From assembly GCA_951406725.2 (NCBI GenBank), contig OX597815.1, positions 70,184,001-70,248,000 of the forward strand: 64,000 bases of DNA, written 5' to 3'. Origin of the DNA: Octopus vulgaris (lineage: Eukaryota). Made by a program: the position numbers and the translations under genes. The first letter of the stretch is position 1; every line of letters starts with the position of its first letter. The notes below the pieces were generated by a model, which saw nothing but the letters and a program-made list of their open reading frames with translations, ran no database searches and had not been told where the DNA came from. This document shows, in pieces, positions 4,050 to 64,000 of this stretch.

Positions 4050-4264
4050 TCTTTTATTCTTTTACTTGTTTCATTCATTTGACTGTGCCCATGCTGGAGC
4101 ACTGCCTTAAAGGGTTTTGATCAAACAAATAAACCCCCCACGACTTATTTTTATCAGCCTTGTGCTTATTCTATTGGTTGTTTTGCCAAACCACTAAGTT
4201 ACAGGGACATAAACACACCAACACTGGTTGTCAAGCAGCGATAGGGGTAACAAACACAGACATG

Positions 4265-4597: not shown

Positions 4598-5230
4598 ATG
4601 AGTGAGTGTGTGTGTGTGCACGCGTGTGTGTGTGCACGCGTGTGTGCGTGCGTGCGTATTTGCAACAAAGCCTCCATAAACTAGAAACCCAGAATTAGGG
4701 TCACTATGAAGAACAATTATACAATATCAATGTATGGTATAACAGACAGCAAAATCTTTCAAAATCCAAGAAACAAAGAACCCCTAAACAAGTTCAAACT
4801 TATGATAATGAAGGACAACTTAGAACAACCAGAACACAAGATATAAAAGATTCACAGACAACAAACACATCAAACATATACTTCCATCATCATCTGCCTA
4901 ACAGTTATCATTATGGTTCTGACACCTGGGCAGTTCCATTTCACATGGCAGTATGAACAACATTAAAAGCATAAACACTGCCTGAGAATCGAAAGACAAG
5001 TGGCAGAAGCAAATATTAGTGTACTATGTCCATTACATCTATACTTTCTTATTATCAATTTTTTAAAATGTTCAATAATATATTAAATTAACATCTGTGA
5101 CATTCAATTTATTTTTATATAACTTTATTTCTGTCCATTCCACACATTTATAACCCCTATGTCTACATTTTTGTATTGCATGTATGAAAGTCCCTTATTA
5201 GAGGAAAATAATAATAATAATAATAATAAT

Positions 5231-7860: not shown

Positions 7861-8294
7861 ATTCCTATGGAATAGAGTCGGAAATTATCAAGTGTACCAA
7901 ATGCTGTAATTTCTTCAGACTGTGTGTTTTAAGCACCATAGACAACAAATTTGAAAAATTGATAAATATAATGGTAGCAGGACAAAGGATTTTTACATCC
8001 TTTCCTTTGCAGTAAACTTTCAGTTTTGCGTTTTTTTGGGTTTTTTTTAACATTTTTCGGTTTTACGTTGTGAATAATTTCAAAGAATCACAATCTCAGA
8101 TGTTTAAAACATAATTTAGGTGGGGAATTTTGAAAAAAATTACGGAAAAGCAGCCCTCCCCACCATCTCCACCAGCATACATTTGTTTTCTTTTTTTCAG
8201 ATTCGTAATCTGCGATACTTAAAACCATACAAGTTCCAAAGAAACAAACAGTTTTGGGCGTACCAGATAATATCCGACTCCATTGTATAGGAAT
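7861..8294. mobile_element. MITE / non-autonomous DNA transposon
   Basis: Imperfect ~50-bp terminal inverted repeats: attcctatggaatagagtcggaaattatc vs reverse complement attcctatacaatggagtcggatattatc. Confidence 0.7.
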
Positions 8295-9539
8295 GACACA
8301 CGCACACATAATATGGGTAAATAGTAAAAAGTAAGAACTGATAGAATGATATTCCATCTTCTCCTTGCCTAATTAAAAACAACCACTCTCATTCCAGTGA
8401 ATAATAACAGGTGTCATGTTGCTCTCCACATGATTCTTGCAGTAAAACGTAAAACAGAAAATATAGAAAGAATTTTTACTATGATGACGATGTGTTTACA
8501 TCTTCACGTGTTGTCAATTAGATTGTTATTTTGATCGTGTAAACACATTGGTATTCTAGAGATGAACGAAAACACACACACTCATGCACTTCGAAGTCTC
8601 TGTCAACACTTTCCTAGTAAAAATAAATATGGTATTCAATGGAAATGTGTTTAGTGATCCTTCACTTTAATTATATGATTGTTTTTTCAAAATAACTACA
8701 TAGAAACGTTTGTGTGTATCCTTTACGACGTAATTGCTCTATCTGCTAGAAATAACTGCCAGATCTCTCGCAACGGTGTTGCAAAGACAGAACACATTAG
8801 ATAATGCAGACAGCCCTACATATCTCTAAGATGGCAAAATGGTCTTTGGTCATAGGTCGGCCGGATTAGAGTTGGCCTTGGATTAAACGACACAGTGTGT
8901 GGGTACACGCACACACACACATATATATATACACATTTGTATGCACGTACATATATACATATACATATATCATGTGTGTGTATACACACACACTCGCATA
9001 TAACAGATGAGAAAGAGAGGAAAAACTGAAAGGAAGAGGAATATACAAGCACGTGCAATCAGGGGTAGAAGGTAGAAGCTGTGATAACGTTACTATTCTA
9101 AATAAATAAATAACCAAAACCAAGAATAAGGAAAGCAAGATTTCACTGAATAATAAATGTAGGTTGGAAAATACGATTTGTCTGAGGTTTAACACTTCCC
9201 ATCTCCACCTCCAGCAGTAGCAGCATCACCATCATTGTTAATATTGTGGTATTTGTATTTCTTTTTTTAAGAAGTGTGATTTTATTTACCAGGTCAAAAA
9301 CTGGTAGCACACCAGAGAAAAATATCAACAATACACAGCTTTGCAGATTTTAACAAAATATTTGAGTCGTTGACGCCAAAGGGACATTACATCCAGCGAT
9401 AGAAATGAAAACCGTGTCAAAAGGCTATCTTAAAAACGTAACGACGGTCTTTCAATAACTATAGCGTTCATTTTACCTTTGACGTCTCTATCCATGGGGT
9501 CTATTTTATCAAATCTTGGTGACGTGTATGGAGGTAGAT

Positions 9540-60340: not shown

Positions 60341-61729
60341 TTCTCATTCCTTTCGTTGGTCATTTTGTACAATTGCTTGCCAAACCATTTGCTGTGACCT
60401 AAAGCAAAAGAAGATAAATGAACTTATTATTAATGTGATTCTGAGTGGCTAACTAACACAGTCATTAGCACGCCAGACAAAATAGCGGCATTTCGTCTGT
60501 ATTTATGTTCTAAGTTCAAATTTCGCCACTTCCAATAAGTACCTGTTGAGTACTGAGTAGATGTAATCGACTATTTTGGGGCTTGTGCCTATAATAGAAA
60601 GGATTACGAAGGTGGTCAGCTAGCAGAATCATTAGCAAGTCAGACAAAATGCTTAGTGGCAATTTTTCCGGCCCTTTACGTTCTGAGTTCAAATTCCACC
60701 GAAGTTATTTTATTCAAGGTTTAGTCTTTGCTAAATTTACTCTAAGGCCTCTTGCTTCAAGACTTGTTTCAACGTCTTGAATTTCTTCAAATCTATCACA
60801 GTGTCTGCTAGGTGTTCCAGGATCTCCCATGGGTAGCCCGTCTTGAAGTCCTCTGAAATGGTTAGGGAAGAACCGAACCTTGGACACTGCACGTCAAATT
60901 GCCCCTGTACTCATTCCAAACTCTCCCCTTGCTGACTGCATCGCTATACATGGCTTACACCGCTCTCACAAGCATCCATCTAACTGTCGGGCTTTGTGCC
61001 TAGAGTAGAAAAGCATTCATCTAATTTTCTTAGAGACTAATAGACTACAGATTGTGGTACCTTATCATAAACCTCTAGATCAACAAATGCTAGATATAGA
61101 AGCTTACCCTTAGATAAAAACTTTACATGCAGTTATAAAGAGATAATCGGTAATACCCTGATCTGGCACAAATCCGAATTAAATCACATCTAAATTGTCC
61201 TAAATTTCCTCCATTGCTTAGTCCTTCAGTAGTTGGTTTTTTTCGTGAGCATCTCTTTTGATCCTGTAGCAGTTGGTAATTATGCTTCTATGCAAATCAT
61301 TAGGTGTAACACCACCTTGTATTCTATGGTTTATTGGGTGACTAATTTGAACTCAGTTTTGCCAGTCATTTTCAGCATCTCACTGGCTCTTTCTGCCTTC
61401 ATATCCTTAATGGACAGTATAAAAACAATGTATAAGACATGGTTGGGTGGATCCGAAGTTCCTTTCGAAAACATGGTTTCAGATTCTTTCACACTGCGCG
61501 GAACCTTGGGCGAGTGTTTTTTGCTATAGCCTCGGACCGACCAACACCCTGTAAGTCGATTAAATAGACGGAAGCAATATAGAAGTCCATCGTTTATATA
61601 TATATATAAATCTTTAGTTAAATATATTCAATGAGAATATTATATACTGAATTTATATTGAGTGCTCTATTGCATCAAAGTATTAATACTATTAAAGTAT
61701 TTATATATTTAATACGAGCGATTATATAT

Positions 61730-62460
61730 ATATATATATATATTAATATATTATTATTAATATTAGGAAATCAATATCAGAAAACTCCCCAGAAAGATAT
61801 ACACGTGTGAAAAATAATTGTTGTGTTAAAAATATATAAAATAAAAATAAAATTTGAATTTTGTATAACATATCGATTGGTAGTTTTTTTTATTGAAGTA
61901 ATACTATAAAATGGCGTTTGTTTGAAAGATAAATTAAAAATTGAAGACAGTAAAACGGATTTTACATATGAATAGTATGGATTATTGCAGAAGACTAATC
62001 AAGGAAGTATATATGGATTTAAATACTCTCATCAAAAGCAGTAATTTTTAATTTTTAATTTATCTTTCAAACAAACGCCATTTTATAGTATTACTTCAAA
62101 TTAAAAAAGCAAAAAACTACCATTCGATATGTTATACAAAATTCGAATTTTATATCTCTGAAGAGCAGAAGAGTTGTCTATAAATGCTTATCAATATAGG
62201 ATTTCATTATAGAGACAACAATTCTGTGAAACGATCGTAAGATGCTTTAAGTACTTGACTCAAAACTTTTAAACTGTCATATACATTATATATTTATACT
62301 TATACATATTTATATATATATATTTCTATACAAATTTATATTTATTTATTTATATATTTTAATACAACAATTAGTTTTCACACGTGTATATCTTTCTGAG
62401 GAGTTTTCTGATATTCATTTCCTATTATTAATAATAATATATTATTAATATATATATATA
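61730..62460. mobile_element. Nested foldback element in (TA)n, probably Penelope-derived, carrying a hammerhead
   Basis: Outer IR ~61730-61856 / 62331-62460; inner IR ~61851-61942 / 62050-62151; asymmetric insert 62152-62330 holds the ribozyme. Confidence 0.75.
62153..62244 (+). ncRNA. Type I hammerhead ribozyme with long stem II
   Basis: TATCT-CTGAAGA-GCAGAA..gttgtct....agacaac..TTCTGT-GAAA-C(GATC)G-TA-AGATG; palindromic ACGATCGT stem III; predicted cut after 62239. Confidence 0.75.
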
Positions 62461-62801
62461 ACACAAAGAAGAATGGAGAATGATACATTTTTAATTCATA
62501 ATCTATAATCCATAATTTGCTTATGAGCATTTCAGATGAACGTAAAACAATGTTACGTAAAACAATGATGCGTTCATTCTACTTTAATCGATCCATTTGG
62601 CCTGGTTGCTCTAAGGAGGATGTACAAGCATCGATATTCTAGATCTATGTAATACTATAGTCGATCAAATATAGATCGATTAAGTTGCATGATTTACACA
62701 TCATTGTATTACGTAACAATAGGTCATCTGAAACGTGCATAAGCAAATTATGATTGATAAATTATGAATTAAAATGTATAATTCTCCATTCTTCTTTGTG
62801 T
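62461..62801. repeat. Second ~340-bp foldback element
   Basis: acacaaagaagaatggagaat vs attctccattcttctttgtgt; internal arms (cataatttgcttatg, tttcagatga, gttacgtaa, taatcgatc) also pair. Confidence 0.9.
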
Positions 62802-64000
62802 TTTGTACTATACTCTGATATCTTCAAAAGCTAACTTTGGATCTACTAATGGAACAGGAGTACAAATGTAATTGTGTGGACTACGTGGTTTACAGCGGAT
62901 ATCACTCGTCGATCTAGTTAGTGTGTGTGTGCGTGCATGTGTGTGTGTGTGTACAATGTCACTTAACGTCTGCTCTCCATCTAGGTGAATAACATTGTAG
63001 TCGTATACACCAGTGGAACGAGCCACAAAATGACGAGGGTGATTTACATTTCCCTAGCTATAATCAGGGTTGGTTAGATTATCATGGTTTCGTTGCTCAT
63101 TGATAAAGAATCTCGAAACAGATGTAACGTCCTTTCAGCTACCAAAGACCCTCCTGTTCGGCTGAAACTACCGTCCGTTTTTGTTGATGTTAATACAAAG
63201 TCTGACGACTCTGTTTGACAACCCTACCAACATAATTTTTATGTCTTTACATGATAATTTTTGTTGATTTGAACTTTATAGTTTGGACCATCAAGTCGCA
63301 CCCTGGATTCTAAGATTTTTTAAGAATATCAAAGCAGTACCAATACCATTCAGTATTATAGATTATTTTACAGTCTTTTATGAAATAAGATAAACATTGT
63401 TAATTTAGATTTGTCAAGAAACATGTTGCTTAGCAACGCGCTGAAACAGGCTTTATGTATATATGTATATATATATATATATTATATTATATTATATTAT
63501 ATTGTTATTTTTAGTATATTGAGTTTCTCTAAGTAACACTTTCAAGATTGTTGCAGTGACACGCAATGGTCACACACTTACACACACACATGTTGCTATT
63601 GGCAATAATGCGATTCATCTGTAAAAATTATACAACTGCAATAGGTGCTAAATTCTCTATATTCAATATTTTCATTCTGGGACTACACATTTCAGATCTT
63701 CACAAAATAATTGAGACACAAAACAGACACCATATTCTGATAACAGGGTCTTTAAAAAAAATAATAAACAGAAAAATAAGAAGAACATTTTGTAAAAATA
63801 ATGATTTTCACTGATTCTGAATCTCTTGTCTAAAACAAAAATTCGAAAATTTTCTTCTTATAAAAATAAATGTGTTAGTGTTAACAGGGGGTGACATGAT
63901 CCGAAACTCCATCTTTTGATGTCAAGCAGACACGATATTCTCTGTCTTTCAATTATAATAAGTATACAAGGTGTATAGTTCTCAAAGGCATGTCCCGTCA

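What the first reader, a model, noticed from the sequence alone, without database searches (positions are those of the whole stretch)
61730..62460. Hammerhead-carrying nested foldback element: candidate retrozyme-like or Penelope-derived non-coding mobile RNA
Seen: a ~730-bp TA-flanked unit folding as a long rod (two nested IRs) with a side branch. The branch holds an intact core (CTGAAGA, ~60-nt stem II hairpin, GAAA, perfect palindrome ACGATCGT, GTA site). The central loop translates weakly to DYCRRLIKE..LN, reminiscent of a GIY-YIG C-terminus. Established: Penelope-like elements carry hammerheads in pseudo-LTRs and often insert with inverted ends. Inference: a non-autonomous self-cleaving element family, with an unusually long stem II for a minimal hammerhead.
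Basis: partly seen in the sequence, partly recalled or inferred. Interest (0 to 1): 0.75.

Follow-up and report, generated by a model that had tools for sequence, protein, structure and literature searches.

The report
Truncated Penelope retrotransposon end with hammerhead
This is the clipped tail end of a known kind of animal jumping gene (a Penelope-like retrotransposon), folded back on itself by an inverted extra copy that was likely made during insertion; its hammerhead RNA motif is real and has an unusually long arm, but it is predicted to cut only in pairs, and cutting is untested.

Summary
The hammerhead core and inverted repeats are real, but this is not an independent retrozyme. Walking upstream from genomic copies (727 first-look candidates) leads into a GIY-YIG endonuclease and reverse transcriptase ORF with Hydra-clade motifs (RWK, DKT, CxCx5C). 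Such inversions are a published PLE feature and occur in 8 of 30 sampled copies. The 'side branch' exists only because a private ~170-nt deletion removed the ribozyme from the inverted arm. 'DYCRRLIKE' lies ~575 nt past the endonuclease stop codon and is non-coding. What is unusual: stem II spans 63 nt (at most 26 nt in 25 published Hydra families), and an adjacent, older element (62460-62921) carries a decayed hammerhead with a 112-nt stem II. Four families in this genome keep a self-complementary loop III in different sequences, which fits dimer-only cleavage (untested). This scan already reported long-stem-II hammerheads on Hydra PLE ends from other DNA, including this genome.

The parts
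61595..61608 (.). (TA)n run at the left junction, likely the insertion target
   Evidence: sequence; family homology stops at 61606
61606..61722 (-). Inverted 'tail' of family A (about 117 nt; it is the start of the element body, 48 nt before the ATG in full-length copies)
   Evidence: matches L094 4062-4178 and five other long loci; ATG at L094 4227
61723..61855 (-). Inverted copy of the 3' end of the pseudo-LTR (equals 62333-62460)
   Evidence: 82 of 87 aligned positions identical to the direct part; alignment
61847..61855 (-). 9-nt overlap at a private deletion joint that removes about 170 nt including the whole hammerhead from the inverted arm
   Evidence: joint found only in the 5 loci that are this window's own place, of 221 loci
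61847..61945 (-). Inverted copy of the stretch just upstream of the hammerhead (equals 62047-62153)
   Evidence: 94 of 96 identical; shares rare alleles 62064C and 62077G with the direct part
61944..62460 (+). 5'-truncated direct copy: last ~520 nt of the 3' UTR/pseudo-LTR of Hydra-type PLE family A, ending in a TA run
   Evidence: 87% identical to L094 7884-8393, downstream of RT and GIY-YIG
62153..62244 (+). Minimal type I hammerhead: stem I 62153-57/62240-44, CUGAAGA 62158-64, 63-nt stem II 62165-62227, GAAA 62228-31, palindromic helix III 62231-38, predicted cut 62239|62240
62460..62602 (-). Inverted arm of a second, older hammerhead-bearing repeat (family B), into whose TA end family A likely inserted
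62603..62921 (+). Direct part of family B (3' end about 62807, tail to about 62921)
62606..62746 (+). Decayed hammerhead of family B: core CTAAGGA (family CTGAGGA) 62611-17, 112-nt stem II 62618-62729, GAAA 62730-33, CGTGCA, TA, stem I TTGCT/AGCAA

Best explanation
The stretch is a 5'-truncated copy of the 3' end of a Hydra-type Penelope-like retrotransposon with a head-to-head inverted duplicate of that end, likely made in one insertion event into a TA repeat, and its hammerhead is predicted to cut only as a dimer. Shown: collinearity with RT+GIY-YIG elements, scattered 5' ends, recurrent inversions, shared rare alleles between the arms, private deletion. Inferred: the element's GIY-YIG nicked a (TA)n target; its RT copied ~520 nt and stopped; a second copy from the same template, starting at the tail, was joined in inverted orientation; a 9-nt microhomology deletion (during copying or later repair) removed the ribozyme from that arm, which leaves the surviving ribozyme as a side branch of the rod. 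Inferred role of the ribozyme in the parent element: two hammerheads of a tandem transcript pair through the 8-nt palindrome and cut out unit-length RNA; a single one stays mostly uncut, so most cDNAs read across the site. This lone copy is most likely inert.
For: Full structure pLTR-tail-ATG-RT-EN-stop-hammerhead-TA in L094; EN or RT+EN upstream of the hammerhead region also in L091, L095, L096, L098. Family A endonuclease model's top structural matches are I-TevI and T4 EndoII GIY-YIG domains (Foldseek prob 0.94-0.99, E 0.02-0.055); family A ORF is collinear (30-46% identity) with intact 778-aa family C, whose model's best match is telomerase RT (E 4e-9). Hydra motifs RMRWKA, DKTGN, CSCKNKKIC, CRLC, CKH (definition in PMC8557442). 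5' ends -110 to -641 in 30 hammerhead-selected hits and 0 to -575 in 30 hits selected on the downstream part. Adjacent inverted pieces in 8 of 30 and 8 of 30 hits. Active monomer fold costs +5.1 to +5.8 kcal/mol, stem I probability 0.01-0.04, while the palindrome self-pairs at -10.0 kcal/mol. 26 of 30 hits extend 22 nt or more upstream of the cut site. Published: inverted 5' copies, optional tail and (TA)n targeting; dimer requirement and low activity of PLE hammerheads.
Against: No phylogeny against reference Hydra proteins was built. Pfam gave no family hit for the family A RT or EN fragments or the family C ORF at E<=0.01 (GIY-YIG in 5 and RVT_1 in 1 of 46 relatives), and the EN fold matches have E>0.001. 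No uninterrupted family A ORF was seen in the 12 long loci examined. Short 3' copies far outnumber ORF-bearing ones (727-897 versus 61 first-look candidates), which truncation explains but a partly independent short subfamily would too; some copies carry a diverged ~325-nt internal duplication. Within the family the core is hardly better kept than stem II (4.4% versus 5.5% mismatch, 59 copies), so selection on the ribozyme is seen only between families. Tail is about 117 nt against 30-40 bp in print.
Confidence: 0.92

Rival explanations
1. Family A has spawned a non-autonomous short derivative (pLTR-only, SINE- or retrozyme-like) that is mobilised in trans by the Hydra RT/EN, and the window copy belongs to it.
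For: Short copies dominate; copies with a ~325-nt internal duplication of the pre-hammerhead region exist; retrozymes related to pLTRs are described (bioRxiv 10.64898/2026.07.22.740005); a true 533-bp tandem hammerhead repeat exists elsewhere in this genome.
Against: 5' ends are continuous, not fixed; the upstream duplicate unit lacks a complete hammerhead; only 2 of 221 loci hold two complete same-strand family A cores, 737 and 1065 nt apart (L094's two mutated cores are missed by that pattern); the window copy is 87% identical to the ORF-bearing L094.
Confidence: 0.06
2. The 730-nt rod with a side branch is itself the mobile or functional unit (viroid-like foldback RNA or MITE-like element).
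For: Very stable fold; TA flanks; arms 94-98% identical.
Against: Most copies have no inverted arm; arms that exist start and stop at different places; the deletion joint that creates the branch is found in no other locus; the true left end is 61606.
Confidence: 0.01
3. The hammerhead of these Hydra families no longer matters as a nuclease; the long stem II serves as a structural or RT-binding element.
For: G-U at 10.1-11.1 in 37 of 59 family A copies; 22 of 30 copies of the young family C have C instead of U at core position 4; no pile-up of ends at the cut site; stem II is structured in three families (z -3.4 to -4.1).
Against: Core words, stem I and a self-complementary loop III are all kept across four families with different sequences, which is what a dimeric ribozyme needs; G-U or U-U at that position is common in published Hydra hammerheads. 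This rival concerns function only and is compatible with the best explanation's anatomy.
Confidence: 0.2

Closest known systems
Hydra clade of C-terminal EN+ Penelope-like elements (Craig et al. 2021, PMC8557442), e.g. Hydra-1_Obim, Penelope-13_HM
   Same: RWK, DKT, CxCx5C, CxxC and CxH motifs; (TA)n targets; hammerhead near the 3' end; 5'-truncated inverted copy at the 5' end (noted for Penelope-13_HM); G-U at the base of stem II as in Hydra-1_Obim.
   Different: Stem II region 63 nt against at most 26 nt in the 25 Hydra families of File S2; longer 3' UTR (~1 kb) and tail (~117 nt); two short motifs of its hammerhead are absent from that supplement, so it is not a listed family.
Minimal type I hammerheads of metazoan PLEs (Cervera and de la Pena 2014, PMC4209133)
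   Same: Short helix I (4-5 bp), 7-bp base of helix II, tiny palindromic helix III, predicted dimer dependence; mostly found as single motifs from truncated PLEs, sometimes as close opposite-strand pairs.
   Different: Helix II extended into a ~27-bp interrupted hairpin; G10.1-U11.1 in the window's subfamily.
Metazoan non-LTR retrozymes (PMC7229834; bioRxiv 10.64898/2026.07.22.740005)
   Same: Type I hammerhead, AT-rich non-coding repeat, PLE connection.
   Different: No tandem hammerhead units, no fixed unit length, collinear with an RT/EN ORF. The 533-bp family D in this genome does fit this class.
Adineta vaga Penelope copies (PMC3846280)
   Same: Inverted pLTRs, optional tail that is the start of the body, microhomology deletions, Asn-rich insert between RT and EN.
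   Different: Different clade; tail 31 bp there.

Membership tests
EN+ Penelope-like element | Telomerase-related RT in a single ORF | tested here: met
   Family A ORF collinear with family C ORF; family C model's best match is telomerase, E 4e-9; profile hits a retron RT at E 0.004. Indirect for family A, whose ORFs are broken.
EN+ Penelope-like element | C-terminal GIY-YIG endonuclease | tested here: met
   Model of family A EN (pLDDT 88): top seven matches are I-TevI and T4 EndoII, prob 0.94-0.99 but E 0.02-0.055; YIG-type motif in sequence.
EN+ Penelope-like element | Pseudo-LTR / partial tandem with optional tail | tested here: met
   L094 and L093: pLTR, tail, then ATG; tail at the direct 3' end in 12 of 30 hits.
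EN+ Penelope-like element | 5' truncation and inverted 5' copy | tested here: met
Hydra clade | RWK, DKT, CxCx5C linker, CxxC and CxH around the conserved E and N | tested here: met
   RMRWKA, DKTGN, CSCKNKKIC, CRLC, CKH/CRH; definition. Family C lacks the CxCx5C linker.
Hydra clade | (TA)n insertion preference | tested here: met
   TA runs at both ends here and at most 3' ends listed (read by eye, not counted).
Hydra clade | Generally short (<3 kb) | tested here: not met
   L094 copy spans about 4.2 kb, with an AAT-rich expansion in the linker and a ~1-kb 3' UTR; described as a tendency, not a criterion.
Hydra clade | Placement in the Hydra clade of an RT tree | not tested
   No reference Hydra proteins were available as tool-held sequences.
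Minimal type I hammerhead | CUGANGA / GAAA / UH core, helix I, helix II, palindromic helix III | tested here: met
   35 of 59 copies not selected on the ribozyme keep all 12 core positions.
Minimal type I hammerhead | G10.1-C11.1 pair | tested here: not met
   G-U in the window and 37 of 59 copies, C in 19 of 59; G-U and U-U also occur in published Hydra hammerheads.
Minimal type I hammerhead | Self-cleavage (as dimer) | not testable with these tools
   Only folding energies.
Non-LTR retrozyme | Tandem units each with a complete hammerhead | tested here: not met
   2 of 221 loci with two same-strand cores at unequal spacing; contrast family D, 533-nt period.
Non-LTR retrozyme | Non-coding unit independent of an ORF | tested here: not met
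   Collinear with RT-EN ORF.
Non-LTR retrozyme | Circular monomer RNA | not testable with these tools
   Only assembled contigs of runs guessed to be RNA were available.
MITE / foldback DNA element | Fixed terminal inverted repeats in all copies | tested here: not met

The most novel reading that the evidence does not exclude
Hydra-type PLEs and their derived retrozymes in this lineage have repeatedly grown hammerhead stem II into a 49-112-nt structured arm while relaxing the catalytic core (G-U at 10.1-11.1, U4C in the youngest family); the arm is a functional module, such as the RT-binding or cleavage-regulating element, and standard short-stem descriptors miss these ribozymes.
Probability: 0.25. 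Interest if true: 0.6.

Novelty: new variant of a known kind. Interest (0 to 1): 0.3.

Why it matters
As an element it is ordinary: a dead truncated PLE end with a textbook inversion. It matters modestly because (1) its ribozyme and three others in the same genome have stem II arms two to four times longer than published Hydra-clade examples, so descriptor searches with short stems would likely undercount them; (2) the four families give a natural covariation series for the dimer model of PLE hammerheads, whose function is still open; (3) the shared rare alleles of the two arms show that the inverted copy came from the same template, a constraint on the unsolved PLE integration mechanism.

Tried and rejected
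Rfam at gathering score: no hit. Loop peptide as GIY-YIG C-terminus: rejected. Within-family compensatory changes in stem II: essentially none; 62172/62220 is mostly A-A, 62174/62218 alternates U-G/U-A. Expression: no RNA holder listed; four runs guessed to be RNA hold only contigs of other copies, 85-99% alike, and cannot show ends or cleavage: no evidence either way. Junction check in three other runs: no contig bridged the joints, repeats were skipped: inconclusive. An ORF for family B: not found in 28 loci, so its PLE origin is inferred from shape (hammerhead, inverted arm, tail, TA end). Pfam and PDB sequence searches of single RT/EN sequences: no meaningful hit. Literature searches for long stem II in PLE or cephalopod hammerheads (listings only) showed no paper on it; precedents outside Hydra are two spike-moss PLE-X motifs of about 47-54 nt marked as deviant, and the supplementary alignments of PMC4209133 and the bioRxiv supplements were not read and could hold more.

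Full report
Observation. The region 61730-62460 does fold as a long rod with a side branch (-286.9 kcal/mol, z -29), built from three inverted-repeat pairs. The branch holds a complete minimal type I hammerhead: stem I 62153-57/62240-44, CUGAAGA 62158-64, a 63-nt stem II, GAAA, the palindrome ACGAUCGU and a GUA site. My descriptor finds this one hit in the 64-kb window and 1 hit in 100 block-shuffled windows; stem II alone has z -4.1. Rfam has no match at gathering score.

It is a repeat. The window lies in a 2.8-Gb animal genome (G000; likely a cephalopod, inferred from size, TA-rich microsatellites and a named Argonauta homolog). The hammerhead region has 727 first-look candidates; the 40 others listed are 92-95% identical. 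Most of the 30 fetched loci match only 61944-62460 and have no left arm.

Walking upstream. Two further searches led from the repeat into a GIY-YIG-type ORF end and RT motifs. In 12 long loci, RT thumb, endonuclease and hammerhead lie in order in L094, L098 and L091 (the last with inserts), and EN plus hammerhead in L095 and L096. L094 shows the whole arrangement: upstream pLTR, tail 4062-4178, ATG 4227, RT, AAT-rich linker, EN, stop 7340-42, hammerhead 8090-8184, TA end near 8400. The window's direct part matches L094 7884-8393 at 87%. The 'DYCRRLIKE' reading starts at L094 7917, about 575 nt after the stop, and matches the family's own EN only at E 3.9: it is not a GIY-YIG remnant.

Identity of the ORF. 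All family A ORFs seen are broken. The EN fragment P0001 folds confidently (pLDDT 88) and its top seven PDB matches are GIY-YIG nucleases I-TevI and T4 EndoII (probability 0.94-0.99, E 0.02-0.055, none below 0.001). Family A is collinear at 30-46% identity with a young sister family C that has intact 778-aa ORFs; the family C model matches telomerase RT best (E 4e-9). Pfam misses both and hits 5 (GIY-YIG) and 1 (RVT_1) of 46 relatives weakly. Craig et al. 2021 (PMC8557442; passages, section 11, supplement part 2 and motif searches) define the Hydra clade by RWK, DKT, CxCx5C, CxxC/CxH and (TA)n targeting; family A has RMRWKA, DKTGN, CSCKNKKIC, CRLC and CKH/CRH. No tree was built, so the clade call rests on motifs.

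Why it folds back. The left arm is one inverted duplicate: tail (61606-61722), pLTR end (61723-61855), then after a ~170-nt deletion with a 9-nt overlap the pre-hammerhead stretch (61847-61945). The arms are 94 of 96 and 82 of 87 identical to the direct part and share alleles rare in the family (62064C, where 44 of 51 have A; 62077G, where 49 of 51 have A), so both come from the same template (inference: one insertion event). Adjacent inverted pieces were flagged in 8 of 30 hits in each of two samples (each sample contains two pairs of hits that are the same or duplicated insertions, and six loci are shared between samples), with variable turning points. Inverted 5' copies and a tail at one end only are published PLE features (PMC3846280 passages only). 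The deletion joint occurs only in the five loci that are this window's own place, of 221. The side branch is therefore an accident of this copy.

Not a retrozyme. 5' ends run from -110 to -641 and from 0 to -575 relative to the cut site, with no fixed start. Two complete same-strand cores occur in 2 of 221 loci at unequal spacing. For contrast, family D elsewhere in the genome is a 99%-identical 533-bp head-to-tail hammerhead repeat, which fits the retrozyme definition in PMC7229834 (passages) and bioRxiv 10.64898/2026.07.22.740005 (parts 1-3 of 5; supplements closed).

The ribozyme. In 59 distinct copies fetched by flanking sequence rather than by the ribozyme (duplicates merged by identical 95-nt string), 35 keep all 12 core positions; mismatch rates are 4.4% core, 3.6% stem I, 5.5-5.6% stem II, 10% loop III (CpG), and compensatory changes are essentially absent, as expected for dead copies of one master. 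Covariation shows between families instead: stem I AUCU/AGAU (A), UUGCU/AGCAA (B), ACUUUC/GAAAGU (C), UUGG/CCAA (D); loop III ACGAUCGU, ACGUGCGU-type, ACAUGUGU or ACAUAUGU, ACAAUUGU, all self-complementary. The active monomer fold is 5.1-5.8 kcal/mol above the ensemble with stem I probability 0.01-0.04, alone or inside the rod, whereas the palindrome self-pairs at -10.0 kcal/mol. Cervera and de la Pena 2014 (PMC4209133; parts 1-2 of 4; supplement not read) found no monomer and low dimer cleavage for such motifs. 26 of 30 hits read 22 nt or more across the cut site, so templates were mostly uncut or religated (inference). Position 11.1 is U in 37 and C in 19 of 59 copies; G-U or U-U there is common among published Hydra hammerheads.

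What is unusual. Between CUGANGA and GAAA the 25 Hydra families of File S2 have at most 26 nt (my count); family A has 63, C 55-57, D 49 and B 112, and the arms of A, B and C are more stable than shuffles (z -3.4 to -4.1). Two spike-moss PLE-X entries of about 47-54 nt are the nearest precedent in that file. Four literature searches (listings only) showed no paper on long stem II in PLE hammerheads. Earlier notes of this scan, however, report the same association and long stems on other DNA (e1-8669291 in this genome, e1-9545524 and e1-9560118 in others); they are unchecked AI notes, not independent support, and none matched this family by sequence or place.

Neighbour. A second foldback abuts the element. 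It is an older family B with a hammerhead (consensus of 25 aligned loci CTGAGGA, ~112-nt stem II, GAAACGTGCGTA), an inverted arm and a tail to 62921; the window copy has G5A and G16.2A changes. Family A likely inserted into the TA end of B's inverted arm. No ORF was found for B.

Expression and assembly checks were inconclusive. The arms differ at several positions from the direct part, which argues against an assembly duplication.

Verdict. A dead, truncated Hydra-type PLE end with a typical inversion (confidence 0.92). The ribozyme is a long-stem-II variant of the known minimal PLE hammerhead, probably dimer-dependent; cleavage is untested. Interest 0.3; the most novel reading, a functional role for the enlarged arm, has probability about 0.25 and would deserve about 0.6.

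Noticed in passing
window 62460-62921: Second, older (70-87% identity) hammerhead repeat, family B, directly abutting the finding: inverted arm, 112-nt structured stem II, loop III CGYGCG-type, ~115-nt tail; this copy's core is mutated. No ORF found upstream.
   Followed up: partly
L120 2660-3500; L207-L221 (e.g. G000:C5:12018489-12025223): Family D: young 533-bp head-to-tail repeat, 99% identical, 1629 first-look candidates, each unit with CUGACGA, 49-nt stem II, palindrome ACAAUUGU, GUC site; arrays often two-armed. Fits a non-LTR retrozyme.
   Followed up: partly
L116-L145, L174-L176: Family C: young high-copy Hydra-like PLE (17156 first-look candidates for its EN region) with intact 778-aa ORFs, no CxCx5C linker, 55-57-nt stem II; 22 of 30 copies read CCGA instead of CUGA in the core; tail about 155 nt.
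   Followed up: partly
L138 about 900-1200; L003 + 1028: Two further hammerhead types: a compact one (16-nt stem II) present as an inverted pair, and one with a 40-nt stem II and ACGCGU loop III.
   Followed up: no
L094 6100-6600, L100 about 4980-5200: AAT/GAT microsatellite expansions in the RT-EN linker of family A (Asn-rich), like the N-rich inserts described for rotifer Penelope elements.
   Followed up: no
L007, L011, L016, L017, L034, L040, L044, L060: A second class of 5' inversion in family A: a short inverted piece from upstream of the direct part (about -110 to -356 relative to the cut site) rather than from the 3' end.
   Followed up: no
L023/L031-L060: Family A copies with a diverged ~325-nt internal tandem duplication that breaks off inside stem II, about 30 nt before the cut site.
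   Followed up: partly
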